64,000 bases of DNA, taken from assembly GCF_035594765.1 (NCBI RefSeq), contig NC_085844.1:196308107-196372106 (forward strand), read 5' to 3'. The DNA is from Anolis carolinensis. Taxonomy: Eukaryota. Positions 1,638 to 61,929 of the stretch are shown here, one piece after another (positions within the stretch are counted from its first letter, which is position 1; every line of letters starts with the position of its first letter). The notes beneath the pieces were generated by a model. That model did not search any database. It saw only the letters and a list, made by a program, of their open reading frames with translations, and had not been told where the DNA came from. The position numbers and the translations under genes are program-made.

Positions 1638-4600
1638 CTTGGCATTGAAGCTCTTGATGTTGTCATAGCCAACCCACTCACTCCCTTGGTAAGCATAAGG
1701 AACATCCTGAGGACTATCCCAAGCCTGAGTAGCTCCCTTGTTCAGGAAGGTGCAGATCTAGAAGGGGAAGAACATTCAGTTGTCATTAGTTAAATTGCTG
1801 TAATTGCTTGAGTTTTACATTGTTGATATTTTTTGTAATTTAGTACATGTTATGGCAACATCTATATGACACATACCTCATAATAAGCCCAGAAACCAGA
1901 CTGTCTTGTGTAAGGTCCAGCAGGCCCAGGGCCAGATGTTGGAGCACCAACAGCTGTATTGGATGGGTTGCTGAGGATGAAGGTATGCCCATATGTTGGG
2001 AATCCAACAATGAGTTTTTCAGCTGGAGCACCATGATTTTTCCAGTAGTTCATGGCATAGTTCTATAGGGAAAATTAAAACACATGACAAAAGCTTTTCC
2101 AAGAACTTATGGATGGAAGACAGCTGATTAGTCACTTGGGAAACAGGAAGCTGAACAAGAGAGATCTTTGCTCTAATCCTCTTTTGTTTTTACCTTTTGC
2201 TTAGGCAAGTTCATATAAGTGACCTGACCAGGTATCCAAAATATACTTACAACATTGAAGTAAATGTTGCTACCAGTATCAGCAGGGCCACTGTAGAGGG
2301 GGCTGTTCTCTCCTGTGTATCCTTCCCAGGAGCCATGGAAATCATAGGTCATCACGTGGAAATAGTCCAGGTATCTGTAGGTTTTGTGGAAATACAAATT
2401 TAGTGTTTACATCATATATGTCCAGTTTGCTAATTTGGCAAGTTCACAGTGTAGAAATTTGTGGTTATCTCTAAAGCAGTTTTTAAAACAGGATGTGTAT
2501 GTGTGTGTGTGAACAGAATGGAGAAAAGAGATATCATCTCTTATTCTTTCCTCAGTCATTACATACATACAATATATGTTCTTTATATTTATTGATAAAC
2601 AGCTGAGAACTGTAAAAGAACTGTGCAACCTGTTTTAAATAGCTTGTCAAGCCTGTGTGGAGCTTTCTTTTTTTCTTGTTAATATTTCTTTGGAAATCAG
2701 AAAGCAGATATATAAACCTTCTGTTGGTGCATGTCCCCTAGCCATTGTTCTTCAGTGTTCTTGGGCACAGTTGCTTGGCAGTATTTCTGCTTCTACGGAG
2801 AATAAGTTTTAAGATGTTTCTTCTCCCTTGTTTCACAGAGTTTGCTGACCTTGAAATGTCCATAACATTGAGGGTCTAGTACAGCATTTCCTCAATCTGG
2901 CATTCTTCACATATATTGGAAGATAGCTCACAACATTCTATGACCATACTGTCTAGTGCAGTGGTTCTCAACCTGGGATCCCCAGATGTTTTTGGCCTAC
3001 AACTCCCAGACATTCCAGCCAGTTTACCAGTTGTTAGGATTTCTGGGAGTTGAAGACCAAAAACATCTGGGGACCCCAGGTTGAGAACCACTGGTCTAGG
3101 GTAATGGTGGTCACTCATATGGAGAACATCAGTTTTGAGAAGACTGGTCTAACTGATTGGAAGAATAATTCAAGATTGACAGGTCCTACTAATCAAAACA
3201 GACTTATACATATATCCCATTTCCCCTTCCTTTATGAGTTTTCTTGTACCCCAAAGTAGTGCTGGAGAGAACAAAAGAGGAAGGTTGTACTTAAACAAAG
3301 TGATGTCTGGGGCTCTAGTAAAATTCCATATTGTGCAATCTAGCTTGTCAAGAAGTAACTCTGAAGGCTTTGCAATAGAAAGGATGAGCATAATAGCACA
3401 TCTTAGAATGCCTTTTCATCTCAGTTCTGTAAATATGTTGGCTACGAATATTGTAGGACTCCCATCCTGCCTCTTGCTAAGCGGTGACCATCTTAAATGT
3501 TGTGGTTAGTATGGGTTGATAAAGATAACCTCTCCTATTCAGAGCTTGGAATGTAACTTTGTTGGAATACAACTGTCAGAAGTGGTTATGTTGCCTGTAG
3601 TTCCTGAGAGTTTTAGCCATAACAGCAGCAAGGAGGTTGCCTATGAAGTTAGAAAATCACAAGAATATAGCTAGGCTTCTAGGGACATTGCAGAGTTAGG
3701 TTCTAACACTGTATCACTTCAGCTCCTCTCCCTCCCTCTCAGCAATCTTCTTCAATGTGCTGGGTTTCTTTCCTGGCTACTAGACAACAAGGAAGTCATT
3801 TGTGTTGCAGCAAAACCACTTCCCCTATGATATTCTGTTTACACTGCTGCTGAAAAACAATTCTGTCAGGACTTACTGGCCAAGCTGTGGAATCTCATAG
3901 CCTGATTCAATGTTGGACAGTCCACCAGCTACAGCAGCAGTGACCATCAGCCTGGGTTTGTTAGTTTGCTTGGCCTCCTGCTCAAAGGCTTCCCGCATTT
4001 CCTATGAAAAAGAAATTGTGCAGATAAAATCTCTCAGTACCATCATATACCATCTTCCTTGCTTTCAGTTTAGAGAGAGAGAAATCCCTTGTTTACTCAT
4101 GATATAAACCTAGTATTCTATAGCAGAACAGGCAAAAACTGGTAATCCCCTGAATACATTCAGTGCAGTGAATACTGGCATGACTTTGCATTTTGTTACT
4201 GTATATTTTAAATATCCTGAAACTGGGGACTGTGGGAGTTGCAGTACAACTTTTGGAACTCCACATGTTCTTTGTCTTTACTAAGTTGCCTGAGGATTCT
4301 TACAGGAGAGTTGTAGTACAACTTTTGGAACTTCACATGTTCTTCATCTTTACTAAGCTGCCTGAGGATTCTTACAGAAAAACCTGGGATTCATTGCTCT
4401 AAATATGCACAGACACATTTTATCGTCTTCGAGCGTGGTACTTACTAATGCTACTAACACTAAGTAACAAGCATTTATTTGCACTTGGTTATTTTGAGGC
4501 TTTTCTGCTTGTATGTTAAGATTTTGGTTATGCAGTTTACCTTAACAAGAACAGTAAAGAGAGCCTTATCCTGAGCAGTGCTGCCTCGAGAACCAGGGTA

Positions 4601-7600
4601 CTCCCAGTCAAAATCCAGACCATCAAATTCGTATCCACGAAGGAATTTGATGACTGAGGTGATAAAAGTCTGGCGGGTTGCAGAAGTGGCTACCATTGCA
4701 TTGAATCTAATCAGAACAGAGAGAATTAGAAAATTAGAACAAACAGTTATAACCAGCATTCATTCCATTCTGGTCTGTAACAGTAAAATGTAATAGTTTA
4801 AAAAAGGCACCAGAATAAGTGGAAAAATATCAAGTCCAACCCCTTGTCTCAAGGTTATCTCTCATAACTTTTAAAATGACATGCAGCCATCATACATACG
4901 GGTTTCCAAGTCCCAAGTGAGGCAAACCTCATGTTTAGGACCTGAAAATAATCCTGTTCCTGAACTGATTTGACTTTTGAGAACAGTCCTTTCAAACCCC
5001 AAACTTCAGCGATGATTATTCAGATCCAGAGTTTGAGTCAAAGCCCATTATGACAGCTTTCCAAGAAAAAAAATTAATGGAGCTTACGGTGCTGTTCCAA
5101 AATTCCATCCTCCGATCGCCAGGAGAGTCTTTAGTTGTCCATTCCTGTGAATATATAATTAAGAAAGATTAAGTTCAGTTTTGATTTTTTATTCAGCGTC
5201 CTTGTAATGATTATGAGTTGGAAGGGAAGCAGATGTGTCCTTAAATGCTGGTAATATTATGGCTCACACAATGGTCAAGGATCTCTTTGATAATAGCAAG
5301 CATAAAGCTCAAGCAATACACTTATGGTGAAGTTATAGTTGGAGACAGAAAAGGTCTGGGAGGGCAAAAGCTACCAGGATGATAAGTATGGAGTTTTCCC
5401 AGTATCTTCGTGGACAATCAGTTCCTGTTGGAGGCAGAAGGGTGAGCTTCACACACAAGCCATGAGATGAGGTCTGTTGTGTGTATGGAAACAGTCCACT
5501 GTTGCAAGGAGGTACTGGATACTTTCTTGTGCAATAGTACAAAAGGATGTATGTATTGATTATGTAAAACTAACTAACTAAGAAAATTTCAGCATATAAA
5601 TTCTATATGGATAACTTCAGTTAGGATTTTTTTTCTGTGTCAGGAGCAACTTGAGAAATTGCAAGTCGCTTCTGGTGTGAACTTCAGTTAGGATGACTCA
5701 GTGACTTGTTCCCACCACCACTTTGCTTCCCTTTTCTAGAATTCCCTAGTGTGAAATTCATTTCAAGTGCTGTCAGATTAGAATGTGTTCTGTATTTTTT
5801 TTTCAGGAGAAGTTTGAACATACAATAGCAAGGTTAGACAATATTAGGCGGAGAATATTTTATGGCATAGCCAAACCAAAATATGACCTGATATTTTCAT
5901 GAATGATGTGTGCATGATCACCATCAGAACAGACTGAAGAACTCCACCTCATGATATTGGGTTTCTGTGGTTCTGGGAAGTGACATCTGGCCAGACTTCT
6001 AAGTGCACAATTACTGTGCTGTTTGTTATAGGTGGTGATGAAAGATTATAATCGTGATCATTGTGATCAAAGCCAAGGGGATCTTATTACATAAAATTGT
6101 TGCAACTTAGGTCAGTCATACATTTACATTGCATACCTATAAAATGATAAAACTATTTACGTTGAAATTTGGTATACTGATGTAATGTAGGGATCTGTAC
6201 ATAGAACCGTAACCCAGCCCAACAAATCTTTTTTCCTCTGGTGTCTTGATTTTGAGGCCTGTTCCTGCGGTTATTTGAGGGTGATGATTCAGAAAATTGC
6301 ATTGGATAGACTGCATCAGCTCTAGTTTTTTAGATATAGTTATCATGATTTGCTGTGGGCATCAGATGGCAACTGATATGTGGCATATATTCTTTATCTC
6401 AAAAACTAGAGCTGATAGGGGAAAACTGGTGCCATTTTTTGAATTAGCAGCTCAAATATACCCAGAAACAAGGCTATATATATGTGTTGGCCAGTGATTG
6501 ATCCTCCTTGTTGTGGAAGTTGCAGTTCAAAATGTTCCAAGAGCAAAGCCTCCTCAGTCTGCTTGATGTGAACAGCCATTTTTGTTTCCTTGTGCATTCC
6601 AGATGTTTTGCTACTTGCCTGCCTGTATAATCTACAAGCCTTATTTATAACAATACAGATGATTTTGAAGAAGCAAACATGTTAGCTGACCTGAAGGGGG
6701 CATTGTATAAATGTTAAACCAGAAATAACTTGTCATCAAACTACTTACTGGTTCTTCAGTCCATTGAAAGATTTGTAAAGAGTCACATCATTCCATTCAA
6801 TAGTGGCAATTTCATTGTCCTTCATCCCAGCAAATGCATAGATTAGTTGGGTACACAGGCATGGGTCAATATTATCAGGCTTGAAGCGTCCCAGACCAGG
6901 TCTATACTGGGCCCAGTTGGTAAAGTAACATGTCAGCTGATAGGCAGAGCCTGTGATCAACAAAAAAGTGGAGATGGTAGTAGATCATGATTTCCATAAT
7001 GAACCAAAGCGATTCATGAAAAATGACTTACAAAGCACTTACAGAGCTCATAGCTATGCCCAGTAACTTGGATGCACTATGACTGCATCCAGTTCATGTG
7101 TGCAAGTCAATATGTGAGTATCCAGATGTGAATCCATGGATTCTATAGATCCATGAAAAGGAGGGCTAACTATCACACATTCAAGTTCGTATATTCATTA
7201 TTTCCACAAAGTTATCAAAAGCATATTGACAAAAGCTACTTCCATAAAGGGTGATTGAATTGTTTGATTATAGTCTGTCCCATCATTACTTACCCAGCTG
7301 AGCATTCAGCAAAAGCACCAGACCTAGAAAACAAAGGAAAAAAATGAGATGACCCTTTGAAAAAAAGTAAAAAAGTACATGTCTGTGTCCAAAGAGGCAA
7401 AGGCATATGAGCACATTTGGAAACCCAGAATGATTTATGCTAACATGATTCACAGAACTTCAGACATTATAGAAAGCCAGGCTTCCTCAATAAATGCAAA
7501 CTGCATGTTAGTACATGCTATTCAGTCAGTCCTATCAAAGAAATCATGGAGCTTTGGGCCTTGACCTATTATGAGATGAAAATCTGGCAGAAGACGGCTC

Positions 7601-23883: not shown

Positions 23884-23915
<32 letters not shown>

Positions 23916-32914: not shown

Positions 32915-32953
32915 CTTTGCCTCTGTACTGATTTGACACTGTTCCTTGCTTCC

Positions 32954-32960
32954 TTTTATA
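32954..32960 (-). promoter_or_regulatory. TATA box of gene B
   Basis: TATAAAA about 40 nt upstream of the ATG, followed by GGAAGCAAGGAA, which is shared with gene C. Confidence 0.72.
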
Positions 32961-40039: not shown

Positions 40040-42270
40040 TCAAGCCCAATTGCAACAGGAACAACTGGAGTCGAATACAAGGCCACTCTGACAATATTGC
40101 AGGTATGTCTCTCCATTCACGCAGTGGTAGAAGGCATTCTTGTTGGTAGGATCTGCATAGAGGCCACTGGACTTCCCGTTGCAGAAGGCCCCACCACTGC
40201 TACCTCCACTACCTCCACTTCCCCCAGAGCTTCCACTGCCACCTGAAGATGGAGCTGCTGTGGGAGGCTGGGCAGGTTGACCATTGGCATTGGTCCCAAG
40301 GGTGGTGGTTGGCACCTTGCAGTCTGAAAGAAAGAGGAAAAATACAGTTTGTCCTTCCATATCCATGGATTCTGCACCCATAGACTGAACTATCCATGGC
40401 TTGAAAATACTAAAGTGTCAGCCCCACCAATAAAAGCCTCCAGTGTGGACTTTGTGCTGTTTTTATAAGTGACAGTGTTTACTATTCTATGCTATATAAT
40501 GGGACTTTGGTTATCCATGGGTGTCCTGGAACCAAACACCAGTAGATACCAAGGGCTCCCTATATAGTTAGAAAACTTTTCTGTTAATGTTTTTCTTAAA
40601 GGACCCAGGGATCATCACCTGACATAACTTGAAATCAGGGCTTGGAGCAGTAATTCATTGGAACAGAAAGGCCCGCACTAATGAGAATGTAGGAAAGTGA
40701 TGAAATAGATAGTGGGTGTTCTCATTCTTGGCAAAAGAAGTTGTAAACTCAGGGTCCGGGGGGAGGAATGGCAACAAAAGATTAAGCAAATGCAGGAGGA
40801 CAAACATTGGTTATGTTTATTTTGCTTGAAAAAATAAAATTAGTGGGATTTTTCATAGGGCCAAGTGAACGGAACACTGAATGCACGTTTAACATGCAGG
40901 ATTTCTAAAATTCAAATACTGAAATATGAAAATTGTTAGGATTGTAGCAGATAGTGATGACGAAATGAATTATTTCATTTTGCACTACAATTATGAGGAA
41001 AGTCTCCCATCTGAAAGTAATCATTGCACTGGGGCAAATTACCCCTTGATGCCAAATGGTTTTAAAAGAAATGCTTCTGAAAGTGTAAACATGGGTACAA
41101 GGAAATAGTGGATGCATTTCACTTATGTTATGAAGGATCAGGAACAGGTACACCAGATGATTATTTAGCCATCTGCAATATGTTACTTACTTGGTGTGGT
41201 CACTCCCAATGCAGATTTCAAGGAATTCATTAGTGGGTATTTGCCTTCCCCACAGAATGCACCAGTGAAGTCATCCAGATCAATAGCCCATACCATGGCT
41301 CCACCAAAGTTATTCTCCAGCAGCCACTTAGCCTGAAAGTTAAATAGTGAAGTAGACAATTGTAAAAGGTTCCCGACAATATATTTCTCACCACCTCATT
41401 ATAGCTTCTTCCACAGTGATTACACCCAGTCATGAATCCAATCCAGACATGAATGGGTTGGAATGACTAGTAGACAATTGATGGTTATTTCATGTGTGTC
41501 TATATCTTCAAATCCACTGCCAAATTGTGGCAATCCCATGAATTTTGTAGGGTTTTTAGGTAAGGAATACTCAGAAGTAGTTTAACCATAACCATAAGCT
41601 GACAAGTGATTTGAAGGTGCACACACACAATTAACTCAGTCCTGAAAGGAATTCTGCCTTCATAGGTAGGATCCAGCATTAGGTATCTCTTTGTTGGGAA
41701 CATGGAAGTGAGAGGTGACCTCTTCTTTCAGATCTTCCATGAACACCATAAATCTACTCAGGAGGGCTGGGAAATCACCTGGAGCTAGTTTTTGGACAGC
41801 TCCAAGGATTGTATAAAAGGAAAAGGAAAGGCAGAGGAAGTTTTATTGTGCTGGTGCTATAGCTGAAGTACAATATTGAATTTTGGCTCTTGTCCTCTTG
41901 GAGAGTGTTTCAAAAATCCACAAGTAAGGGCACAAAAGAGGCAAGAAGCTTACCTTGATGGCAAAACTTTTGGGGTTATCATAACCAATCCACTGGTTTC
42001 CTTTATAGGCATAAGGCACTTCCTGGGGAGCATTCCATACAACAGTGGCACCGCTCTTCAAGAAGGTACAGACCTGGGGTGGGGGTGGGGTGGGGGATAT
42101 CTCTTGCTTAGCCAATGAAGGTAGAATATCTGGCTACATAAAACTTGATATACATTATTAGATGATTGCTTCAAACTTTGCTATGTTGAAAATAGTATGA
42201 CATCCTTACTATGCATAGCAAAGGACAGTCAAATCACAGAGAATCAAACCAATGTATTAGAGAAAAGAGG

Positions 42271-42317
<47 letters not shown>

Positions 42318-45300
42318 GCACACAAAATATTCTGTCCAACCACCAGCTAAAAGCATCTTATATCAGCCTATTTAAAAGAGGCCATTTTTGTTTCCTAGAA
42401 AAGAATGAAAATGAATTTGTTTTAAATCAATACTAAATACTCATCTCTCCAAAACAGAAAAGGCCTCAAACTAAAGAAAAGAATTTGGAACTAAAAATAA
42501 TTGCTAGGTTGAAACATAACACATGGAAAGTGGGTGTCAGTATATTGCAACAACTATTTTCTATATGTATGGGATTTCAGTATGAACAAGCACATATTTG
42601 GGATCTCATTGACAAGGAAACTGGAGTTTTACCTCAAAGTATGCCAGTGTCCCAGCTGCTTGAGTGTAGGCACCACCTTTACCTGGCCCAGCAGTTGGCG
42701 CATCCAGGCCATGGTTAGAGGGGTTGGAGAGGGTGAAAGTGCGGGCATAGGCTCCAAATCCCACCATCAGCTTTTCAGCCGGTGCACCATTTTTCTTCCA
42801 GTAGTTCATGGCATAGTCCTGGTGGAAGGAACATTGATCAGAAAGAAGTTCTAAAATGCTTATTCACCAATTGAACAAAAGCATATGACTGAAGGTGAAA
42901 AGAACCTGAAATGCTTAGCTCTTCACAGTTACTCACCACATTGAAATAAATGTAGGAGCCTTGGTCTTCAGGCCCTGCATACAGAGGGCTGTTTTCACCA
43001 GTGAAACCTTCCCAGGATCCTCTGAGATCATAGGTCATCACATTAATCAGGTCCATGTACCTGAGGAGGTAGAGGAAGAAAGCAATCTAATATATTGTCC
43101 TGGCAAATTCTTTTAAAACTATTTATTCAATAGAAGAAGTTTGGGATTCACTCTAGTATTTGAGTATTTAGCATTCTCTTGGAGGGGAAATAGTTTTTTG
43201 TTTCTCATTTCCATATAGCAATACATTTAAATTTATCGAATTGCATATTAGCAATTTATGGCAGATAGGTGCTGAATTTGATAAAAACATACATCCATTT
43301 AAAGCTAATTAGGATTTTTAGGAAGGATATGTGATCTTTTATAGATCCATTAAGGGAAAGAAGCAGAGTTATAAATACATGCATATATACATACAATTCA
43401 TAAATATTTCTAAAATAGCAAAATAGTTATATTTAAGAAGGCAAACTAAACTGTCTTCAGTGGCTCACCAAGCATCATATTCTGGCGGAGCAGTTTTTAT
43501 AGATTGGAAAAGAAAGTAGGCAACTTATACTCTCAAAACAAAGGAGCACTCAGTTCATTTGAAATCACAGTGGGGAGAACTGAGGCAAACGTTCTAAAGT
43601 GCAATTGCCACAAAAAGAAATCTTGTTCTATTTTTACCAAGGGTTGAAGTATTGATGTGCAACTTACTTGGACATCTGTGGGATCTGGTATGCAGTTTCA
43701 ATGGTGCCCACACCAGCAGACACAGCTGCAGAAATCAACAGTCTGGGCTTGTTGGTTTGAGATGCCTCCTGTTCAAAGGCTTCATACATCTCCTGTTATT
43801 GGAAGCAGTGAATAGTTATAAAACACTCCTTTAAGAAGAAAGAGCAGTGATTTCTAAACAATGGATAGATGGAAGACTTTTAAACTGATATTGTGTTCTA
43901 TAGCTTTTGCTCCCATTTCTCCAAACCCATAAACCTCACCATATAATGGCATTTTTGGAGGAGAAGATTAAGAGTATTGGGAATAGGGGTGACCAAAGGA
44001 AAAAAAACAATATCTTTGGACTTCAACTCCCACAATTCCTAACAGCCTCAAGCTTAAGCGGCTGAGGGGGAAAAGGAAAGGGCCTGAGGCCAGGAATTGT
44101 GGGAGTTGAAGTCCAAAACACCTGGAGGGCTCAAGTTTGCTCATGCCTCGGTTAGAATAATTACATCTTGCTCTCAAATTCCTGGAATCCTCATGTCAGC
44201 ACTGCTACTGGCCAATGCTAGCTGAGATATTCTGCAAATTGTTCCTCAAACAGAATTTTTCCAAAGGCTGGAAATAATCTGGAGCACAGCTTGTTCCACT
44301 GCTTGGAGTCTGCACCCATAATCTAGAGAATATATTGTCAAAACCAACCTGGAGCAAGACAGTGAAAAGTTGTTGGGTATCAGCAGGGCTGCCACGATTG
44401 CCAGGGTACTCCCAGTCAATGTCCAACCCATCAAAGTCGTACTTGCGTAAGAAGGAAATAGCAGACTGAATGAATGCCTGGCGATTTTGAGCAGATGAAA
44501 CCATGTCAGAAAACCTATGCGATAAACCAAAGTGGAGACTCAGAAACGATGAAATGAATGTTTTACCAATTTGCAGCATTCCATATCTTGTTGGATTCCG
44601 TCTCCCACGATTCCTCATCATTGGCTATATTGTCTAGGATTGATGGGAGCAGATGTCTGACAACATCTGGAGGGCTATATATATGACTACTTATAAATGA
44701 AATAAAAGATCTATATCTATATATAGATGTATAGACATATTTTAAGTATGATCTACTCAGTTAACGGTATAAAAACTTTTAAAACAGGCTTTAGTGGATG
44801 CACATAATTATAAGCCATTCAAAGAGAAAAAGTTGCTAATATGTTAAGTGAGAAGCTGTTCAAAATGCTTGCAAAACAAGGCCTTACTTCTGGGTACCAA
44901 AGTTCCAGCCTCCAACAGAGAGCAAGGTTTTCAGATCAGGATTGCTGTAGAGGAAAAAGAAAAATAGAAAGGCCATTAGACAATCTGAATCATCTACAAA
45001 CTATCATGTGATTGATCTTCTTTTTTTAAATAACAGAAATGTCAGTCTTATATGTAGGATTGACAGATCCTAAAAGAGCTCCCATACTATTTCAAGGTTG
45101 CATGGTCAGGGCAGAGGTGAGAGCAGCAACAATATTTATTGCGAATTCTTTATAATTTTATCAAAGATGTTGTTTCAGAGATGAAACTACTTAAGCAATG
45201 CTACTCATAATGACTTTGATTTTGTATACCTCTTGCATAACATATATTTCAGGGCTCTTAATGTGGAATGGAAACCAAAAGATATTCAAACAGGATGGAA

Positions 45301-46541
45301 CATCTACAGAAAAATGAGATGGACTGAAGTCCCATAAAAGCCATTGTGATTTGAAGATGTTAAGAGATGTTCAATATTCTCTAGACTTTGTCATTGTTTT
45401 CAGTATCCCATGTAAATACACAAGAAGTATTCTTACTAGCTTTTGAGTCCATTGATGCCACCATAGAGAGCAACATCATTCGGATCAATGGTCTGGACCT
45501 GGTAGTTGTTAGTCATGCCCGCAAATGCATAGATGACATGAGTACATAGGCATGGGTCAAGATCTTCAGGCATGTAACGTGCAATGCCAGGTCTGTACTG
45601 GCACCAGTTGGTGAAGTAACAGACAATATTGGTAGATGCACCTGCATGGGAGGAGGCATAGAGTCAATCAACGCAAGATTGTAATTAACTAGGGTTGAGA
45701 GAAAAAAAAAGTTTGGAATATTGCTTTTTATGGAATATAATAAAAACGGGGAGTAGACTAGAACTTACCCAGCTGCAATTGCAGCAGGAAAGCCAGACCT
45801 ATGAAAGAAAAGTTCCTATTGTGAGTAAAGCATAAAAATAAGAATTCTTTATTCACTCAAACTATAAATGGTGGATTCACTTTGACACAGAAGTACATTG
45901 TTCCTTTAGGCAAAATAATTCTTAGTAACACTGATTGTTTTAGGTCACTTCAGTGTTTGAAACTATCCATGGATTGCCCTAATCTTGCATAATAATTATG
46001 ATTGTGATGAACTGATGAACTGATCACTTACAGATGACAGCTTTCATGAAACTGCCTGATAGAATCTATCATATGATCTCTTTCAATGTCCTAAACAATA
46101 TAGTGTGAAATGAGCACAAAATAGTATATTTGTTTGTGTAAAGTCAATATATAGCTAATCCATTGATTGAAGAACTATTAATTAAGAAGGATTTTGAAAC
46201 TATTCCATATCTTATCCTAAACAGGCTTGATGCCGCAAGAACTAAAAATGGAAAAAGGATAAGTAAGCATGGGCAGGTTCTCAACAAAAGATAACATAAC
46301 TTGGGTCCCATGAACAAAGTAGGAACTAAAACTTTGTTTGGAAGCACCAACAACATTTAGAGCATTCTCATCAAATATTGTAATCAAGTAATATACAAAG
46401 GTACTTTTAAAGAAAGGATCTGAACTCGTAAGAGAGGAGATAGGACACAAATGGACAGGTGGAAGTCCTAGAGCTTGTCTTTTTTGCTGCTGCATAGATG
46501 AACTCTTAATACTCACCAGTGAGAAGGAGTAGTTTGCCCAT
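40040..46541 (-). CDS. Gene C: divergent CHIA-family chitinase paralog, 487 aa, GH18 + linker + CBM14
   Basis: Exons 46541-46517, 45798-45769, 45641-45437 (205 nt), 44944-44888, 44514-44349, 43792-43668, 43060-42937, 42818-42633, 42073-41954, 41332-41191, 40323-40040; total 1464 nt, in frame, [16 protein letters not shown] intact; DPCLC and C-terminal CSCCNWA* are CHIA-type. Confidence 0.93.
42265..42314. repeat. (CA)n microsatellite in gene C intron 8
   Basis: Read directly from the sequence. Confidence 0.97.
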
Positions 46542-46582
46542 TTTGATACCTGTGTACTAATTTGGTTTATTCCTTGCTTCCT

Positions 46583-46589
46583 TTTTATA
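46583..46589 (-). promoter_or_regulatory. TATA box of gene C
   Basis: TATAAAA about 41 nt upstream of the ATG, same spacing as in genes A and B. Confidence 0.72.
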
Positions 46590-49833: not shown

Positions 49834-49958
49834 TATGGTTAAATCCTACTTAAGACGTCAAAGAACAGGAGATACATTAAAGAGGGAATGTGTCCACTTG
49901 CACCAATTTGGCTTCCATTTCTACAGCTGTGTTGGATCCAGTTTGAGACTTCCCATAC

Positions 49959-51219: not shown

Positions 51220-54200
51220 TCATTCTGCAGAACGGGTTGTTCTTTTATCCAGCTCTTTTTTAGCAGCTCCAAGCAGTGGATATTTTCCTTCATTGCAGAA
51301 AGAACCTGAGAAATCATCTAGGTCAAGTGCCCAAATCATGATGCCTCCCAAATTGTTTTGTTTCATATACTGAACCTAAAGGAAAAAGCAAAGAATTAGG
51401 TAAATCTAGAAGCACAATAAGTTTTTCAAGCTGATTATATAATGTACTTATATGCTGTCCTGTGGGTCCAATGCATTAACATTTGTCCACATATGGCCCA
51501 TGGAAGACCAATATACACAAATGCAATATTGGCAAATAAAGCTGCTAGCTCCAATGTGACTAGACAATTCTAAATATACAATGCATACTATAATCATATC
51601 TCTTTATATTATTCTCTTCACTCATTTGCACAACATGTTGGATGACAAGACAAGAGCCTAAGGAGAGTTTACTCAAGTCTAATGCACCATCGAATCTAAT
51701 GCACTTCTCAGTTTTTGAAGCCCTGAAACCAAAAAAAGTATATGCTGCCAAATGTTATGTGCAGCAGCAAAAAGTGCACTCTTTGTAATTTGTTCAAACA
51801 AGGTGCACATTACAGTGGCTGCTTGCTCATAATTCCTTCTTTAAAAACAAAAATGTTAAAATACTAAAACTTTTAGCAATGGAAAAGAAAATCATGGGAG
51901 CATCTATGCTGTAGAATGAATCCACCTTAACTGCCCTGGTTCAATGCTATGGGGTCATGGGGGCTGTAGTTTGGGATCATGGGGACTGACAAAGAATGCT
52001 GATGCCTCATGAAACTACAAATCCCAGCATTGCATAGCATTGAGCCATGGCAATTAAATTAGTGATTACATCCCTCAAATAGGAGCTCCAGTTGCTCATG
52101 AAGTAGCTTCTCCTTTTGCTTATCATAATAAGATTATAGTATTACACAAATCTAATATGCACCCTTAATTTGGGAAGGTAATTTAGCCTTAAAAAGGTGA
52201 CCATTAGATTCAAGTAAATACAGTAGTTCCATTTTCCTCTGTGGACTGCATCATAAAAGCATAGTGGCAATTTTGGCGGTGCCCATCAGAGGGTGTGGGG
52301 AACCCGTCGCTCCATGCCCCACATTGCCCAACTCACCAAACTGAGCTTCCCATGGGGGAAGTTGACCAATATGCTCTTCAAGTTGTGAGGTGCCTTGGGC
52401 CAAGAAGTTGCGACAGGACCTCACAACTTTCCCTTTCGCAAGACACCCTTCAATCAGGAGAGTGTTACAGACATCATTTTCTAGCAGTCCGCTATCCAGT
52501 GACTCAGAAAGGCTTTAGTTAGAGTGTCACCTTGTTGTGAAGGTAGCTTTGGGGAGGTAGTGAGGCATCATCTAGATCAATACAGTTTTCTGAATTTATG
52601 GCCTTTTCCTTGTGTTATGAAAGGGACTGTCACATTGGGGACCCGTGCTTCCAAAACTAGCAATATATGACTAGAACTAATTCTCACATTATTATACAAT
52701 CTTTGTAAGCCACTCACTAGCACCCCTAGGTGACATTATTTAATGAAAACAGGGAGTGAAACTTTTGACAATACTTGCCTTAAGCGCAACACTTTGCACA
52801 TCTTCATATCCTACCCATTGGTTTCCTTTGTAAGAGTATGGAACTGCTTGCTCCTCAATCTGTACTTTCCTGGCACCATGATTGAAACTGCAGATCTGGC
52901 AGAAACAAGTTGTAAGAGATACATATTACATAAACAGGTTAATAAAAAGTAGTTCTAGACTTCAATTTAAATTTCTGGGTTTAACCTTTAAACCTCTAGA
53001 TGACTTGGACCTTAAATACCTGCTTATGGATATTTTGTCTTTACATGAAATACATATAAATGTGTGGATGTACACAAAGCAGACCCATATAGTCCATTAC
53101 ACAGGGGCAATCCCCACCACACAATATCTGATCATTGGCATCAGTGAGGGTTTCTTCTGTATCAGTAGGCTTGTCAGTTTGGGATCTTATGGCCCTTGTC
53201 CAGAGATGCTTTTTGTTCTCACAGCAAAATATCTTGCAGCAGCCTAATCTTCATAGGAAGCCTCCAGATATGAAAAATTCCTCATTCACTGTAGACGTTC
53301 ATGGTCAAAACATGGTGTTGGAGGCCTGGAGGGAACCCCACATCTTAGGCAGTGGGACTGAACATTGTAACCTCCCACATGAAGTAAACTTTGGAGTTAG
53401 ATGAATGCTTCTTGTATGTGAGCTATACATGAAGCATTTATCTTTTTGCACAATCACTCCCATAATCTCCCAGCCACCATGACCTGTGGCTGTGGGCTGG
53501 TCATATCGACTGGGAATTGGGCTTCTAGGAACCCAATCCGGCATGACCATCCCACAACCAATGGTCATGCTGGCTGGGGATTGAGCTTCTAAGAGTGCTC
53601 ATTCAAAAAAAGGGTAACATTTTCAAGAAATTATGTATGTGTGTGTATAATTACATACTATTTGCTATGGTAGTGGTTGTTATATCCTTCAAGTCAACTC
53701 AAATGTGTGGCAAATCTATACTACATATACTACAAGGTTTTACATTGCTTTTCTTGAGGGCTGAGAGAATATAACTTTATTATACAATAAGTTTGCATTG
53801 CTGAGTGGGCGTTCAAACCTGACTCAGCTCCTGGGGTCCAAGTTCAATACACAGACCACCACACCATGCTGTTTGTCTGCCTTTCTGCTTTTCTGTCTAT
53901 CTGTCTGTCTCACTCTCTAAAGTTGTAGAACTTCATGCTGGGATTCCATATCTGAATCAGGAATTCATGTCCTTGACTGTGGTTTAGAAAACAGAATGAT
54001 GCTGTGATTTCCATGGGTTTAATGGGAAGACGAACATGCATGAAAACATTGCTACCTCATAATAGGCCAGCATTCCCGCTTTTTTTGTGAAAGCACCAGG
54101 ATTTCCTGGGCCGGAAGCCACAGCCCCAACTCCAGTCTGGCTGGAAGAAAGAGTGAAAGTCTGCCCGTACGCAGGGATTCCCATGATGATCTTCTCAGCT

Positions 54201-57200
54201 TGAGCACCCCTCCTTATTAAGTATTTTATTGCAAAATCCTGCAAAAAGAAGGAGGAATCGATTAGTAAATGTGCATATCTGATGGGACACTGAGCATATT
54301 CCAGTTCTGCTATATTACATGATGGGTTGCTATTTCTTCAACAGTCATGTGAAACCCAATTATTCAAATAAACTTAATAACATTTATATTCAAAGACATC
54401 GCTGTTTGTGTGGAATATTAGCATGTCTCTTGTAGCACTTTAAAGACTGGTAACATAAGCTTTCATAGACTGTTTTCCCAGATGCATGGAACAAAGTGCC
54501 TTGGAGCAGACCTTTATAGGCACACTGTGTATATGAATATCTAGTGATAGAAATTTAAAACATTTTTGTATGGTGATGACATGAAAAGTGCAGATTTAAC
54601 AATTTCCATGGGAGAAGGTGTTGCCTAAAGTTAAAAGCAGAGAACTGTTTGACTGGTGGAGTGAGTTATTAGAAGGTACTGACAACATACCACATTATAA
54701 GACGACGCAGTTCCACTGTCAGCTGTGCCCTTCTTAAGGGGACTGATATGCCCTGTGTAGTTGTGACTGTTATCTTCCCAGTAACCATGGAAATCATAGG
54801 TCAAGAAATTAAGGAAATCTACAGAACTGTAGGAGGAGAACAAACAGTAAATCACGCCCCATTTTGTAAGTGTGATGATGCTTACATTTCAAGCCTGCAA
54901 GATTAAAATAAAGTACCCATTTAGCTACCTGCACCAGATTTCCCACTGGGAAATCTGAAGGCATGACAGTTAGGTTAAACCCTACTTTTAATCTCTTAAT
55001 CTCAACTAGAATAGAGTAATTGAATCAGTGAAATGGTTAGGTTTATCTAAATGTTAGTCTCCTTTATTTGGGACTAAAAGAGGATCCCAGCTTCATCTTT
55101 TATTGCAGCATAAGAGGACAGGGATAGGATGTTGTAAAATTCTATGGCTGAATTCTCATTTTAAACCAGATATTAATTCTCCCTTTAGGAGGGAAGTTTC
55201 ACAAATGAGCCCCAAATCCTCATAGCATTTACCTGCACCATTTAAATGACTAGCAATATGAAATGCCTATGAACACTACAGTTTTCTAGTCAGCATGCTT
55301 TCCATTCTAAGTACCTTTTGCCTTGTCTTTGTTTGTAACAAATATAGCTGAAAAGATTTACCTTGAGATACTCTTGATATCATAGCCTTTATCAATGAAT
55401 TCCTTTCCAGCAGGTACTGAAACACTCAGAATGAGTTTATTCATATTTGGATTGTCCTTAGCCTCCTTCTCAAATGCGATAGATAGTTCCTAAAGGGTAG
55501 ATATCATTGTGATTTAAGGAACAGTTAGCTATTGTTATTCTATGAAGTACTTAGGCTGTTCCGAACAAGAATAATCAATTTGTATCAAAGTTCCTTCCTG
55601 CCACAATCAGTTCATTCCCTAACAGAGTGGGTGCTCTAATTAGTTGGGAAATTGATTTTTGGGTTTTAATATATATCTTTACTTTATTTGTATGTATGTT
55701 TGTACGGCATCCAATTGTTGCCTATTGTAAGCTGCTTTGAGTCCCCTTTGGGATGAGTAGGGCAGAGTATAAATAGTAAACAAATAATAAATAAATAAAT
55801 TTTGTTGGACTCTAATTTAAGATAGCCATATTGGCTGGTAAATTCTGGGAGAAGAGTCCACAAAGTAACTTTTCCGAGCTTTGATAAATTCTACAACTCA
55901 GGGTCAGATCTTAAAACTCCTTTATATTTCTGAAAAATTCACTTCTAAATTATTCATTTAAAAACTAATGACTCAATGCTGAGACATTGAGTAGCCTTGA
56001 GACATCCTTTGTCAGTTTGTCCAATTGCCTCTTCAATCAATATCTTGGTTAAATCCTGTTAACATGTGCTTTAACGTACCTTAACCAGGTAAGCCAAACG
56101 TCTTTTATCATTCCGTTCTGGATATTGCCAAGAAAGATCCAAGCCATCAAAATTGTTTTCCCGAAGAAACAGAATCACGGACATCACAAATTCTGAGCGT
56201 GTGGCAGGAGATCTTGTTATGAGTCTAAAGCTGTAACAGATGGAAAACATGGAATTAGGGGATTTAAAAATATATTTCATTTTTCATAGAAATATCATTG
56301 ATTTTTTTTGTATTAGCGTAAAAGCCACTGTGGCATCTATTTTGTTTTTTAGGCACAGCTTTGCTATTATTCTTTTTCTTCAAAAGCAACTGCTGTTTTG
56401 TGGGTATACATTACTGAAGAATGCTGTATTCCCTTTGTTTATAACGTGATCAGGTGACATATCTATCTTGTCCTTGAAGGCAGAAGGAAGAACATACAAT
56501 GAGCATAGAGGAGGAGGAGGAGGAGGAAGGGGGGGATAAACTACCTAAACAGCTTCTACCCTCCCTCAGTTTGCCCTGGCATTGACTAGGATGAAGCCTT
56601 GGCAAAGAAAGAGGAGGAGGAGAAATAATGAACCCGGTCACTCAGTGGTGCCTTGGCCAAATACAAGAGTCGAATGAAAAGTAATGCCTCCACCTTCGTA
56701 ACTCCTCAACAGATGACAGTACTGTTATGTGGCAGGTACTGGCTTGTTCAGCAGACTTTCCTCTACGGTTCCATTTGGTGGAAATTCTAGCATTGAACGG
56801 TTGTGTTGTTAAAGTGCAAAGTATGGAACCCTGTGCAGACGGTCAGTCAATGCAACTTAAGCAACGTGCAGTCATTGAATTCTTGACAGCAGAAGGTGTC
56901 ACCCCAAAGGAGATTCATCAGAGAATGCAAGCTGTTTATGGTGATTGTGTTGATATGAGTACTGTGCATCATTGGGTGAGTAAGTTTAAAGATGTTGAGG
57001 TGGGAACATCTGACTTGCGTGACAAACAAAGAGTTGGACGTCCTGTGGCAGCAACCACCGAGTTTCACAAGCAAAAGGTTGACAGATTGATTCAAGGCAA
57101 TTGTCGTATCACTCAGAGAGAAATTTCAAGCATAATTGGCATTTCACAAGAACGTGTGGGCCACATTACTGCTTTGCTTGGCTATTGGAAGATCTGAGCA

Positions 57201-60200
57201 CGATGGGTACCCAGGATGCTGACGTCTGAAATGAAAGCGCACAGATTTGAAATTTGCCAGGAACTCCTCTTGTGTTATAATTATGAAAGTGACGCCTTTC
57301 TCATTTGGGGTGACACCTTCTGCTGTTAAGAATTCAATGACTGCACGTTGCTTAAGGCGCATTGACTGACTGTCTGGTCAGGGTTCCATACTTCGCACTT
57401 TAACAACACAACCGTTCAATGCCAAGGCTTCCTGCCAAATGGAACTGTAGACGACAGTCTACTGAACAAGCCAGTACCTGCCGCATACTAGTACTGCAAT
57501 CTGTTGAGGAATTATGACGGTGGAGGCATTACTTTTCCTTCAACCCTCGTAGCTTCCAGTCTCTGGGAGAGAACAAAGCATTGTCAACACCCTGCAGTTC
57601 CACTGGATACATTATTTTCCCCTGTTCTGTGGGAAAGCATAAGGGCTTTAATGCAGGAATTCCTCAAGTGTCCTTCCTCCTTCTACAGTCAATGAAGGAG
57701 ACATTCCTCAGACACAAGTCACACCATAACACCACTCCTCAGAACAAGACACTGTGTACACATTGAACGTTGAAAATATTCCAGCACCACACTTGTCAGA
57801 TAGATGATACTACTTAACAATCTATCGTACCCCACAACTAAATCTCACCCTAATTCCACTCTAATACCAAGGATATATGTTGCAAAAACAATAACAAACA
57901 ATCAGAAAATATGTTCTCTTGACAACTATATAGTAAAAAAAAGTGTTTTAAAACAATTACATTAAATGTGTTGTTGACGGCTTTCATGGGCGGAATCACT
58001 GGGTTGTTGTGTATCTTCCAGGCTGTATGGCGATGTTCCATAAGTATTATCTCCTAGATGTGGGCAAAACGTCAGGAGAGAATGCTTCTGGAACATGGCC
58101 ATACAGCCCGGAAAATGCACCACAACCAAATTCCTTGCACATTAAAGCTGCAAGGAAACAATTTCACAGTGAAAACAGTTGTAATTTATTTGTTCCATGA
58201 ACGCCATCGCCAGGGCAAACTGAGGGAGGGTAGAAGCTGTTTAGGCAGTTTATCCCCCCCGCCCCTCCACTCCTCCTCCTCCTCTAGGAAGATTAGAATC
58301 AAGGTAGATATGGATGTTTTTGCTAGGGATTGACAAGGCCTTGATGGCAGAAAGAAACTCCTCTGCTAGGGGAGAAAGAAAAAATAGTGGAGGAGGAACT
58401 TGCATTTTTAAAGTTCTTTCCATCACTTGATTTTTTTAAAGAGCTGGGGATAGGATCAATACAAATTAAATTGGGTAAAGGGAACCTTCATGACACTTAA
58501 AGATATGTTGAATATGTATTTTGTTATGATAGTGTAGATTTTTCATTTTAAATGGCAAACCCTTTCTTATAGAGCTTTTATTTCAATGACTATTATATCT
58601 GTGGAACTATATATTGATATTGCATCTCAGAACTACAGACCAACTGATTGGCAAAGCAGTTTTAACTCACATATCTCTTTGAAGATTTATGACCATAGTC
58701 ACAACTTGTATCTCTGTGTCTGCTACTACATTGCAATCTCACACTTGCCTGTGGCCATACTTCCAATTTCAGCCGTGCATCTGAAGATGTGGCTTGATCA
58801 CCTTAAAAGCTCATACTGAAGTCTCAGAGGAACTTTTGGTATCTTTGATTTTGGCTACAAAAGGCAGAAATTGAATAAATTGATAGTTTTGGACTTACGG
58901 AGCAGATCCTGCTGAATATCCACCAACAGAGAGAAGAGTCTTCAGTGTGGGATTTCTAAATAAATAAATCAGTGGATGTAAAGCAAGTAAAAATTAAGTG
59001 TATACTTTTTTAACCCAAAGTAATCAAAGCCTGCTTGCAAGAAACTGGTGCTTTTGGGCAGAATAACAAGTGGTTCCCCTTCCCAAAAATCAGTGGGGGT
59101 GGCATCTTTCAAATGGCCAGGGAGGAAAAGCAGTTCCATTTCTCCTCCGTTTCCCAAGTTGGGAGACTGGGGAGAAATGGCCAGGAAAGGAAAGGGGTGC
59201 AATTTCTTCTCCGTCCCCAACTTGGGGGATGAAGGAGAAATGGCTTGGGGAGGGAAATGAGACCATTTCTCCTCTTCTCTGAGCTGGGAAAGGATCAGCT
59301 GTGAAGTGAAGGAGAAATGCTTGGGGAGGGAAGCCCCTGCTCCACTATCAGGTGGAGGCTGGTGAGTTTGCTAGTCTCACCCTGATGGAGGGGCAAAGGC
59401 ACCTTTCGGTATGCGATCAGATCTAACGCACACCTCAATTTTGGCAAAGCAATTAAGCTAAAAAAGATGCACATTAGATTTGAGTAAATATGGTAATTTC
59501 AAAGAAACAAAGAAGATATTTCCATGTAAAGAGACCCATCCTGAAAGACTGTTAATTTCAGAGTCTAATCTTTACACAACTGAATTAATGATTTTATCAG
59601 CATGGGACAGTGAAAATGACTCTGACCTTAATTCTGTTTCAATGGGACTTGCTTCAGAGGTATCTTGAATACTACAGCTTTCAAGAATTCCCAGTAAGCA
59701 CAGCCAATGGAAATGGTGGCTGAGAGATTCTGGGAATTGTAGTCCAAAAAGTAATTTCCCCCACCTTAGCATTAACTATCCTATCTCAGTATGAGAGGCT
59801 ACTATTGAAATGATCTCTCCTTTGTGAACCAAACTCTGTAAGTGCTTCATTACTATACTTACCTGGTTTTTAGTTGGTGGATATTGTCATATGTGCTCAA
59901 ATCATTCCACTCAGTGGCTGCAATCATGTTGTCTTTTATGCTGGCAAAAGCATAAATGATGTGGGTGCAGAGGCCTGGATCAATGTCGTCCGTGATAAAG
60001 CGTCCCGATCCGTCCCGATACTGAGACCAGTTGGTGAAGTAGCAAACCAACTTAAAGGTTGAAACTTTTATGGTGATTCAAAAAGATAACATGAAAAGAT
60101 AGTCAATGAACATGAAACAAAATGGAGTTAGGTATGAGCAGTGAGGTATGCCAATTTCATTAATGACAAACAAAATAGTTTAGTGAAGTCACAGCAAAAC

Positions 60201-61778
60201 TGGACATCAAAGTTTGTGTAATGCAGACACAGTGTAGGACAGCTCTGAAGATGCTGAACTTACATTGGGTTAGCATTCAGCACATTGGATAATAAGACCT
60301 AGAGAAGATTCACGCCCCAAAGACATGGGAGCTGCAAGCCACTGCGGTTCAAGAAGATCTCTTCAACTTGGTGAATGAACATCAAAATGGCAAACATAAA
60401 GTAAAGTATATTCGAGGAAAAAAAACACAATTCCCCACAGACACTAATGGGAAGTGAGCTAGGAACTACAAGCTGCTAGACATCTGAAATAACTTATATA
60501 GTTCTAATTATTACAGGATATTCTACAGCTTCAGAGGGTGCCAAAAAGATCAAGCAAAGCAATAAAGAATAACTCTCACAAGAAGAGAGGTAGCAAAATC
60601 TGGTCCCCGAGTTACAAAAATTTGACTTACAAATGACATATAGTTAAGAATGGGGGTGAGACAACAGGAAGTGAGAGACATCTACTCATCAGAAGGGAAA
60701 TTCACTCCTGAAAGAGTTATTATGGGAAAAAGTGTCTCCACCAAAGCTTTATCACCAATCTCTGTTTCCACAAGCCAATAATCACAGGACCAGAAAATGA
60801 AGTGAGATCTTCTGAACAGGGGCACAGACAGCAAAACAAACACCACAGGGATGTTAACCGTTCCCTGTGCTATCCAAAGTTAAAATTATATGTTTGTATA
60901 TGTATATGTATGTGTGTGTCTGGAGTTACACTTAAAAATGTACTTGTTCCAACTTACATACAAATTCAAATTAAGAATAAACCTATGTAATAATGATAAT
61001 ATTAATAAACTTTATTTAGACCTCTTCCCACCTCCCCAAGGGGACTTGGAGCGGCTTACAACAAGAGGCAATATACAACAAATACGCACATAGCAAACAA
61101 CAGAAGTAAACATATCAATTACATAGGAAATAATTAACAGCAAACAAATTAAGTATAACTCACAAATATTACTCATAACTATACAAAACTAAAAATACTA
61201 CAGAACATATCTTGATCATAACTTGGGGACTGCCTGTATTTCCATAAATGATACACTACAGATCCAGAATTTACTTTGGTGGGAAGAGAATTAGGTGACC
61301 CTTTAGAAAAATTTGACTCTTAGAAGAAGAAAAGAAAAAAACTAAGACATAAAGAAACAGTGACATACCTTGCTGTAGACATATCAATGCCACTATACCT
61401 AATGGAAAAAGAGAGAGAGATTATGCTAGGACAAAGCTATAAACACCAAAAATAATCATCTGAATAGTTTTCCCTTTAAGGTTGTTCTTTTGAATAATAA
61501 AGGAACTGAAATGAATGCAGGACATATTCTTAGCTGAGGCAGAAAGCATACTTGCTTAGCTGGCAAGGTTTATGGGATTTTCCCACGCACTGATACTGGA
61601 TTTTCTGGAGGGTCCTGTGGAGTGTTAAAGGCTTCTAGCCACAAGCATTCAAAATATGTTTTACCAACCCTCCCCATATGTTGTTGAAGTATTGAGAGCT
61701 CTATTTGAAGTAGTGTTCCCAAGCAGGACTTTACATTTCATCAAAAGCCTTACCAGTCCATATGATTGCTCTGCTCAT
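51220..61778 (-). CDS. CHI3L2: Gene D: chitinase-like lectin (CHI3L2/YKL-39-like), 394 aa, predicted non-catalytic, no CBM14
   Basis: Exons 61778-61754, 61398-61369, 60064-59863, 58955-58899, 56230-56080, 55489-55362, 54826-54691, 54238-54056, 52895-52779, 51375-51220; total 1185 nt, in frame (intron 9 is GC-AG). N-terminus [33 protein letters not shown]; GGY in place of GGW; [16 protein letters not shown]; stop directly after the GH18 domain. The symbol is assigned from diagnostic residues and position, not from a search. Confidence 0.88.
56664..57549 (+). mobile_element. Mariner derivative with two inverted left ends (about 250-bp arms) and truncated transposase
   Basis: TA-flanked; [35 protein letters not shown]...GRP...RITQREI (mariner HTH region); 57300-57549 is the reverse complement of 56664-56912. 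Confidence 0.9.
57968..58130. mobile_element. Short Penelope terminal remnant, two inverted halves
   Basis: ggctttcatgg...gggttgttg...ggctgtatggc facing catggccatacagcccggaaa. Confidence 0.75.
60596..61238. mobile_element. Tigger-like MITE interrupted by an L2-type tail, in gene D intron 2
   Basis: gtccccgagttac...aacttggggactgcctg|ta inverted ends. Confidence 0.6.
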
Positions 61779-61862
61779 TGTTGGGTGCTCTGCTCTTCTA
61801 TATCCCACGAGCACTTCTGCTTCCTTTCCTGTGATGTACCTGTAGCATTGCTCTGAAACAGC

Positions 61863-61929
61863 TTTATAAGACTTGGGCAGGGTGGAAGTGAAAGACTGTG
61901 GTGAAACACTTCTGGGAATTATTGTGCAA
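61863..61929 (-). promoter_or_regulatory. Gene D proximal promoter: TATA plus ETS-IRF, RUNX, STAT and C/EBP-like sites
   Basis: TATAAA 61868-61863; GGAAGTGAAA 61884-61893; TGTGGT 61897-61902; TTCTGGGAA 61910-61918; TTGTGCAA 61922-61929. Confidence 0.6.

What the first reader, a model, noticed from the sequence alone, without database searches (positions are those of the whole stretch)
1638..61929. Four-gene GH18 cluster that looks functionally partitioned: two acid chitinases, one probable non-acid chitinase, one chi-lectin
Seen: four same-strand paralogs with conserved exon phases and no frame disruptions in the visible exons. A and B carry the AMCase acid-pH triad (R145, H208, H269 in human numbering); C has R/N/R; D has lost its catalytic residues and CBM14 and has a different promoter. 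Known: in human, CHI3L2 lies upstream of CHIA pseudogenes and CHIA in the same order, and CHIA copy number tracks insectivory in mammals. Inference: an insectivorous lizard keeps an intact, sub-functionalised digestion-plus-immunity chitin module where humans retain mostly pseudogenes.
Basis: partly seen in the sequence, partly recalled or inferred. Interest (0 to 1): 0.75.

Follow-up and report, generated by a model that had tools for sequence, protein, structure and literature searches.

The report
Green anole chitinase gene cluster
This is the already annotated block of chitin-digesting genes in the green anole lizard, matching the mammalian block gene for gene, and its tail exons suggest that two of these genes split long before placental mammals, which earlier work had left open.

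Summary
The four genes are real and intact. D equals the RefSeq Anolis carolinensis chitinase-3-like protein exactly, and A equals the first 345 residues of the RefSeq acidic mammalian chitinase. A, B and C already sit in a 2018 published data set.

In transcription order D-C-B-A corresponds to mammalian chi-lectin-CHIA3-CHIA4-CHIA5. It is an inherited amniote block, not an anole expansion, and only part of the anole's set.

The residue readings are right, but the pH partition is not shown. R145 is nearly invariant, C's R/N/R is the ancestral state, and enzymes with the full triad can peak at pH 5.

By-product: the CBM14 exon groups A with CHIA5 from bichir to primates (100/98) and rejects a placental CHIA4+CHIA5 clade, whereas catalytic domains group by lineage. 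Gene conversion therefore hides a duplication older than the marsupial-placental split and probably amniote-wide. B also shares its core promoter with C, not with A. No expression or activity data were available.

The parts
51220..61778 (-). Gene D, chi-lectin (RefSeq 'chitinase-3-like protein 1'), 394 aa. Coding exons 61778-61754, 61398-61369, 60064-59863, 58955-58899, 56230-56080, 55489-55362, 54826-54691, 54238-54056, 52895-52779, 51375-51220. D138S, E140Q, 5-residue deletion of the R145 loop, W99Y, no CBM14.
   Evidence: (identical to P0004)
61863..61868 (-). TATA-like box of D, about 90 nt before the ATG (A, B and C have theirs 46-48 nt before)
   Evidence: Read directly; for A, B, C
52777..52778 (-). 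GC splice donor of D intron 9, needed to keep the frame
   Evidence: RefSeq protein agrees
51220..51233 (-). D reads through a weak GT at the exact place of the exon-10 donor of B and C and stops a few codons later; likely trace of how CBM14 was lost (inference; a GT there has about a 1 in 16 chance)
   Evidence: no CBM14 remnant between D and C by a profile search in the same call
40040..46541 (-). Gene C, CHIA3 ortholog, 487 aa. Coding exons 46541-46517, 45798-45769, 45641-45437, 44944-44888, 44514-44349, 43792-43668, 43060-42937, 42818-42633, 42073-41954, 41332-41191, 40323-40040. Intact DxxDxDxE; Q104/R145/N208/R269; CBM14 at 40186-40043.
46549..46589 (-). Core promoter/5' leader of C, shared with B
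21825..32914 (-). Gene B, CHIA4-type, 496 aa. Coding exons 32914-32890, 31244-31215, 29955-29754, 29084-29028, 28937-28772, 27733-27609, 26579-26456, 26346-26161, 25327-25208, 25108-24967, 22138-21825. A104/R145/H208/H269; CBM14 at 21971-21828 of the non-CHIA5 type.
32920..32960 (-). Core promoter/5' leader of B, similar to C's and not to A's
   Evidence: score 48, 0 of 2000 shuffles as high
21976..22091 (-). 21-nt tandem repeat (5.5 copies) coding the Ser/Gly/Pro hinge of B
1638..10257 (-). Gene A, CHIA5 (AMCase) ortholog, exons 1-9: 10257-10233, 7323-7294, 6950-6749, 5144-5088, 4706-4541, 4001-3877, 2374-2251, 2062-1877, 1757-1638. Exons 10-11 not in the window. A104/R145/H208/H269.
   Evidence: (identical to the first 345 aa of P0140)
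10298..10304 (-). TATA box of A; the surrounding 60 nt match neither B nor C above chance

Best explanation
The window holds the middle of the ancestral amniote GH18 cluster in Anolis carolinensis: chi-lectin (D), CHIA3 (C), CHIA4 (B), CHIA5/AMCase (A).

Shown: all four have open frames and a hydrophobic N-terminal leader. A, B and C keep the catalytic motif and a CBM14; D keeps the barrel but not the catalytic acid.

From established GH18 chemistry (recalled): A, B and C are secreted, anchor to chitin through CBM14 and cut it by substrate-assisted catalysis with E140 as acid; D can at most bind chito-oligomers or glycans.

Inferred: A is the main gastric enzyme. B has the same acid-capable active site but a CHIA3-like promoter, so it may be expressed with C (oral glands, other gut tissue). 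C probably peaks at a milder pH. D is probably an immune or tissue-repair lectin.

History: A and B are an old pair whose catalytic exons 3-10 were repeatedly homogenised by gene conversion within lineages while exon 11 escaped. In squamates conversion stopped early.
For: Order matches human CHIA3-CHIA4-CHIA5.

C groups with a marsupial protein at 100/100, and its exon 3 start resembles the published galago and bat CHIA3 by eye.

CBM14 tree, 56 rows x 48 columns: A, tuatara, turtles, opossum, placental CHIA5, toad, axolotl and bichir form one group at 100/98; a placental CHIA4+5 clade is rejected (p-AU 0.003), as is a squamate A+B clade (0.011). The mixture model agrees (100/97; p 0.0005). The catalytic domain rejects that same group (p about 4e-43) and instead joins the two types within marsupials (100/99) and bats (98/92). 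Quartet site counts by paralog versus by taxon: 7:1 in CBM14, 1:22 in residues 22-392.

In all 14 mammal comparisons seen in Emerling Table S9, exon 11 is 56-71% identical between CHIA4 and CHIA5. Species with only CHIA4 (shrew) or only CHIA5 (mouse lemur) of the pair carry the expected CBM type.

A-B dN 0.064, dS 0.76, with no intron similarity beyond splice sites and repeats. CHIA3 and CHIA4 are co-expressed in tamandua and bat salivary glands.
Against: The two CBM types were defined from the CBM itself, so its tree is partly circular, and it has only 48 columns. B-type CBMs are not resolved from CHIA3 CBMs (p-AU 0.45 and 0.47; quartet 4:2), and therian CHIA4 support drops to 80/91 under the mixture model. 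B's CBM is closer to CHIA3 (76%) than to mammalian CHIA4 (72%). The toad protein has a B-like N-terminus with an A-type CBM. Only three CHIA3-type proteins were in hand, one mammalian. Mammalian labels were matched by species name, not accession. There is no expression or activity data for any anole gene.
Confidence: 0.7

Rival explanations
1. One reading: an insectivorous lizard keeps a cleanly partitioned module (A and B acid, C non-acid, D immune lectin) because of its diet.
For: Residue states are as described. H269N shifts chicken Chia2 towards pH 5-6. Predicted pI of D is 7.75 against 4.9-5.5 for A-C, and D is 67% identical to its Podarcis homolog against 94-95% for B and C. None of the named proteins among the 120 listed of 525 CHIA-type hits is from a snake.
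Against: Triad-bearing human and macaque enzymes peak at pH 5. R269 and K269 bird enzymes are active at pH 2-4. The same paralogs are in Komodo dragon, turtles and tuatara. The module omits CHIT1, a second lectin and further CHIA-like genes. The snake blank comes from a truncated list.
Confidence: 0.25
2. B-like genes arose more than once: each lineage duplicated CHIA5, and the copy next to CHIA3 captured CHIA3's last exon (and promoter) by unequal crossover or conversion. Lizard B would then be an analog, not an ortholog, of mammalian CHIA4.
For: B lies between C and A. B-type states at CBM positions 441, 442, 449 and 452 are ancestral and shared with CHIA3. The tree cannot separate B-type from CHIA3 CBMs. 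B shares C's promoter.
Against: Four CBM sites unite squamate B with therian CHIA4 against CHIA3, two go by taxon. 18 of 38 shared codons differ synonymously between B and C in CBM14, so there is no recent exchange. Both types are present in gecko, fence lizard and tuatara, and a coelacanth model has a B-like CBM.
Confidence: 0.2
3. A and B are largely redundant gastric enzymes kept for dosage, with no meaningful division of labour.
For: 87.5% identity and identical states at the activity- or pH-linked positions checked: 61, 104, 128, 145, 173, 208, 214, 216, 246, 269, 300. Emerling 2018 works under a copy-number assumption.
Against: Different core promoters. Different CBM14 types kept for very long. 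Each forms its own squamate-wide group in the catalytic tree (97/94 and 99/98).
Confidence: 0.25

Closest known systems
Placental CHIA3-CHIA4-CHIA5 block (Emerling et al. 2018, PMC5955627; Allio et al. 2025, PMC11789784)
   Same: Same order and strand, 11 coding exons, catalytic motif in exon 5, CBM14 in exon 11; conversion-prone middle exons with exon 11 spared.
   Different: All three are intact in the anole; in human CHIA3 and CHIA4 are pseudogenes. In squamates A and B have long stopped converting. Both papers suggested CHIA4/5 might be placental-specific; the CBM14 data here argue against that.
Human and mouse AMCase (CHIA5; PDB 3fxy, 8fg5)
   Same: A aligns without gaps over the catalytic domain and the hinge start; same triad.
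   Different: A has M61 like mouse (human has the low-activity R61). pH optimum of A is not measured.
Chicken Chia1-3 cluster (PMC13029220)
   Same: Tandem Chia copies with different pH profiles and one inactive copy lacking the binding domain; residues 104 and 269 matter.
   Different: Bird copies are bird-specific duplicates; all bird proteins retrieved are A/B-type (73-82% to A/B, 60-64% to C). The anole's C and D are far older paralogs.
Mammalian chi-lectins CHI3L1 (YKL-40) and CHI3L2 (YKL-39)
   Same: Loss of E140 and of CBM14, the 5-residue deletion after the catalytic motif, W31 and W360 kept; one clade with turtle and squamate lectins (95/91). S138 and Y99 are as in placental CHI3L2.
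   Different: D has Q140, a 4-residue insertion after W218, and lacks the YKL-40 W69. It cannot be assigned to either mammalian gene.

Membership tests
GH18 chitinase family | Glyco_hydro_18 domain | tested here: met
   Pfam above cut-off for A and D; B and C align full length to them
Active CHIA-type chitinase (A, B, C) | Intact DxxDxDxE with E140, and D213 | tested here: met
Active CHIA-type chitinase (A, B, C) | C-terminal CBM14 with six cysteines | tested here: met
   for A from the RefSeq protein, outside the window
Active CHIA-type chitinase (A, B, C) | Measured chitin hydrolysis | not testable with these tools
   No assay data found
Acid-pH AMCase (A, B) | R145/H208/H269 triad | tested here: met
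Acid-pH AMCase (A, B) | Activity optimum near pH 2 and gastric expression | not testable with these tools
   The triad alone does not predict it
CHIA3 (C) | Clade with mammalian CHIA3 and position upstream of CHIA4/5 | tested here: met
   100/100 with one marsupial protein; exon-3 start resembles published CHIA3 by eye; order
CHIA5 (A) | CBM14 clade with placental CHIA5 and last position of the three | tested here: met
   100/98 and 100/97
CHIA4 (B) | Middle position with a CHIA5-like catalytic domain | tested here: met
CHIA4 (B) | Clade with mammalian CHIA4 excluding CHIA3 | tested here: inconclusive
   p-AU 0.447, neither shown nor rejected; quartet 4:2
Amniote chi-lectin (D) | Catalytic acid lost, CBM14 lost, clade with CHI3L1/2 | tested here: met
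   D with CHIA rejected at p 0.002; D with squamate CHIT1 not quite rejected (p 0.054)
CHI3L2 specifically (D) | Clade with mammalian CHI3L2 | tested here: inconclusive
   p-AU 0.207; the best tree prefers CHI3L1 at only 74/45
Amniote chi-lectin (D) | Binding to chito-oligomers without hydrolysis | not testable with these tools
   W31, W360, Y212 and D213 kept; no assay

The most novel reading that the evidence does not exclude
CHIA4 is not a young placental copy of CHIA5 but an amniote-old (possibly older) mosaic. It keeps a CHIA3-type core promoter and an ancestral chitin-binding exon, while its catalytic exons have been overwritten again and again by CHIA5. This would place an acid-tuned active site under CHIA3-like regulation, and would explain both the co-expression of CHIA3 and CHIA4 in mammalian salivary glands and why catalytic-domain trees misdate the pair. 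The weaker part (duplication older than the marsupial-placental split) I put near 0.85, amniote-wide near 0.65; the figure given is for the full mosaic reading.
Probability: 0.3. Interest if true: 0.6.

Novelty: already known. Interest (0 to 1): 0.36.

Why it matters
The cluster itself is annotated and of a known kind. Its value is comparative. The anole keeps intact counterparts of human CHIA3 and CHIA4, for which I found no pH data under the mammalian paralog names, so they can be expressed side by side.

Two papers explicitly leave the age of CHIA4/CHIA5 open and suspect a placental origin. The vertebrate alignment in the 2018 data set is 1106 characters long and starts at exon 3, so it appears to omit exon 11 (inferred from length, the runs were cut). 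If the CBM14 signal holds, the CHIA3-CHIA4-CHIA5 block predates mammals. The ancestral placental repertoire would then be inherited rather than expanded for insectivory, and paralog labels in bats, marsupials, turtles and Old World monkeys should be assigned from exon 11 and position.

Tried and rejected
- Extra GH18 fragments or pseudogenes in the window: none by tblastn at E<10 or a CBM14 profile. The only other profile hit below E 1 was 9.7 bits at 563-498, not credited.
- Recent A-B gene conversion in the anole: rejected (dS 0.76, no shared introns).
- Recent exon-11 exchange between B and C: rejected.
- My early idea that C is the ortholog of chicken Chia3, from a shared peptide: rejected, since retrieved bird proteins are all A/B-type.
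- A single unequal crossover giving B a 5' A-part and a 3' C-part: does not explain B's C-like promoter.
- D as a decayed CHIA: rejected.
- The Natator model P0123 as a real chitinase: treated as a probable fused prediction of lectin and CHIA3 neighbours.
- Testing the promoter match in mammals through the 2018 supplement: two motifs gave 0 hits, but the held text cuts long sequences, so this is no evidence.
- Rfam: 0 matches.
- The Burmese python digestion paper has no chitinase mention in its main text.
- Cluster-member names could not be looked up, so paralog labels rest on listing names and published tables.
- Olland 2009 and Hussain and Wilson 2013 are not held.
- No structure prediction was run; solved homologs were sufficient.
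Full report
Observation. A motif scan and self-comparison located four GH18 genes on the minus strand. Exon models translate without stops and with identical phases: D 394 aa, C 487 aa, B 496 aa, A 345 aa in nine exons. Identities are A/B 87.5%, A/C 62.6%, B/C 64.0% and D 46-49% to the others. Of 75 splice ends, 74 are canonical and one is a GC donor in D. D is identical to the RefSeq Anolis carolinensis 'chitinase-3-like protein 1'. A is identical to the first 345 residues of the 477-aa RefSeq 'acidic mammalian chitinase', which ends in a CBM14; its last two exons are not in positions 1-1637. Emerling et al. 2018 (PMC5955627; main-text passages, section 6 and supplement rows seen) list six anole models in data set S1, three of which match A, B and C by eye.

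Residues. A aligns gap-free to human and mouse AMCase. A and B carry R145/H208/H269, C carries R145/N208/R269, and D carries S138/Q140 with the R145 loop deleted. The triad is attributed to Olland et al. in PMC11773036 (passages); the original is not held. In the 88 rows tabulated, R145 is present in all proteins with E140, and N or S at 208 with R at 269 is the usual state of CHIT1 and fish enzymes. C therefore keeps the ancestral state and A/B the derived one.

pH inference. It is weak in both directions. Wild-type human CHIA peaks at pH 5, macaque CHIA at pH 5 with a second peak at pH 2 (PMC8781735 passages). In birds H269N moves the optimum to 5-6, but an A104/R269 enzyme peaks at pH 3-4 and Q104/K269 enzymes are active at pH 2 (PMC13029220, parts 1-3 of 6 read). 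C is Q104/R269. A milder optimum for C is likely but not shown.

Identity of C and D. C is 95.7% identical to a Podarcis protein and 88.1% to a marsupial one over residues 22-345, forms a 100/100 group with them (35-row tree), and its exon 3 start resembles published CHIA3 sequences. D falls with squamate, turtle and mammalian chi-lectins (95/91). Placement with CHIA is rejected (p 0.002), with squamate CHIT1 borderline (p 0.054), and CHI3L1 versus CHI3L2 is open (35-row tree). D reads through a weak GT at the position of the exon-10 donor and stops.

Order and extent. Human coordinates run CHIA3, CHIA4, CHIA5, PIFO (Table S2 and S8 rows). Allio et al. 2025 (PMC11789784; passages and section 10) place CHI3L2 in the same cluster; its exact place upstream is recalled, and a fused reindeer model running CHI3L2 then CHIA agrees. 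Fused skink and turtle models run CHIT1-lectin-lectin and lectin-CHIA3, and a second anole lectin lies on a record of the same length as D and A. The cluster therefore probably continues beyond both window ends (inference). A single ancestral locus in non-mammals was proposed in 2007 (PMC1945033 passages).

Age of A and B. Of 188 named sequences examined, 110 gave 111 CBM14 matches. They show two types among CHIA4/5-like proteins. On 56 selected rows the A-type forms a 100/98 group from bichir and amphibians to lizards, tuatara, turtles, opossum and placental CHIA5. A placental CHIA4+5 clade (p 0.003) and a squamate A+B clade (p 0.011) are rejected, and marsupial plus placental B-types group at 95/96. 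With the mixture model on 39 rows these become 100/97, p 0.0005 and 80/91. The catalytic domain rejects the A-type group (p about 4e-43) and pairs the two types within marsupials and bats. Site patterns by paralog versus by taxon are 7:1 in CBM14 and 1:22 in the catalytic domain. All 9 columns that separate the types in at least 4 of 5 amniote lineages lie in CBM14. This fits published conversion of the middle exons with exon 11 spared.

Limits of that result. Types were defined on the CBM, and the tested groups were named after a first quick tree. B-type is not separated from CHIA3 (p 0.45-0.47). Its distinguishing states are mostly ancestral. The toad protein mixes a B-like start with an A-type CBM. 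The search lists were cut at 120 of 1727 and 120 of 525 hits, so absences mean little. The firm statement is that the duplication predates the marsupial-placental split; amniote age is probable.

Promoters and conversion in the anole. Over 60 nt upstream of the ATG only B-C align above chance (0 of 2000 shuffles; the other five pairs 347-1622 of 2000), and the result holds at 150 and 400 nt. A-B show dN 0.064 and dS 0.76 with no intron similarity apart from repeats. A-type and B-type each form a gecko-to-anole group, so conversion ceased early in squamates. In mammals CHIA3 and CHIA4 are co-expressed in tamandua and bat salivary glands, which fits a shared regulatory history but does not test it.

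Diet. Orthologs occur in Komodo dragon, turtles and tuatara, and D-like genes in snakes, so retention is not special to this insectivore. No squamate-wide CHIA study turned up in the top listings of ten literature searches. Hussain and Wilson 2013, which may cover anole genes, could not be read, and Emerling figs. S1-S7 are pictures. Other papers seen as passages only: PMC10761930, PMC6487185, PMC13673647, PMC10368815, PMC11190707, PMC10234404.

Verdict. The cluster is known; the neat functional partition remains a hypothesis. The useful new element is the exon-11 and promoter evidence on the origin of CHIA4.

Noticed in passing
window 45600-45610 (C exon 3, residue 32): C has an extra cysteine next to W31, also in Podarcis C, giving an odd cysteine count; published mammalian CHIA3 has serine there. 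Extra cysteines have been reported to lower Chia activity.
   Followed up: no
window 40040-46541: C is the most conserved gene of the four against Podarcis (95.4% versus 93.5% for B and 66.7% for D), although CHIA3 is often lost in mammals.
   Followed up: partly
window 6749-6950 (A exon 3, residue 53): A has Q53 where B, C, D and human AMCase have H.
   Followed up: no
P0021 (second Anolis carolinensis chi-lectin, not in the window): 68% identical to D, with N138/Q140, E213 and E267; an Anolis sagrei counterpart exists, so the lectin was duplicated before these anoles split.
   Followed up: partly
P0188, P0184, P0194 (Old World monkeys): The functional macaque-type 'CHIA' used as a comparator for human CHIA has the CHIA4-type CBM14, so it appears to be a paralog of human CHIA5.
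   Followed up: partly
P0197 (toad), P0129 (coelacanth fused model): The toad protein has a B-like N-terminus and an A-type CBM; the coelacanth model holds a B-like CBM stretch. Unexplained; bears on how old the pair is.
   Followed up: no
P0144 (Podarcis), P0123 (Natator): These database models look like fusions of neighbouring paralogs (CHIA3 with B-type; lectin with CHIA3) and would mislead trees.
   Followed up: partly
window 23839-24352: AT-rich low-complexity array in B intron 10, directly upstream of the exon that escapes conversion.
   Followed up: no
window 13060-13660: GC- and CpG-rich stretch in the A-B spacer with a 22-nt repeat; probably a mobile element, not identified.
   Followed up: no
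window 47816-47982: 167-nt assembly gap flanked by purine-rich sequence between D and C; too short to hide a gene but could hide a small exon remnant.
   Followed up: partly
window 4236-4377, 8217-8567, 39007-39198, 59111-59274: Short tandem duplications (periods 72, 172, 66, 64) in introns and spacers, plus many interspersed repeats shared across the window.
   Followed up: no
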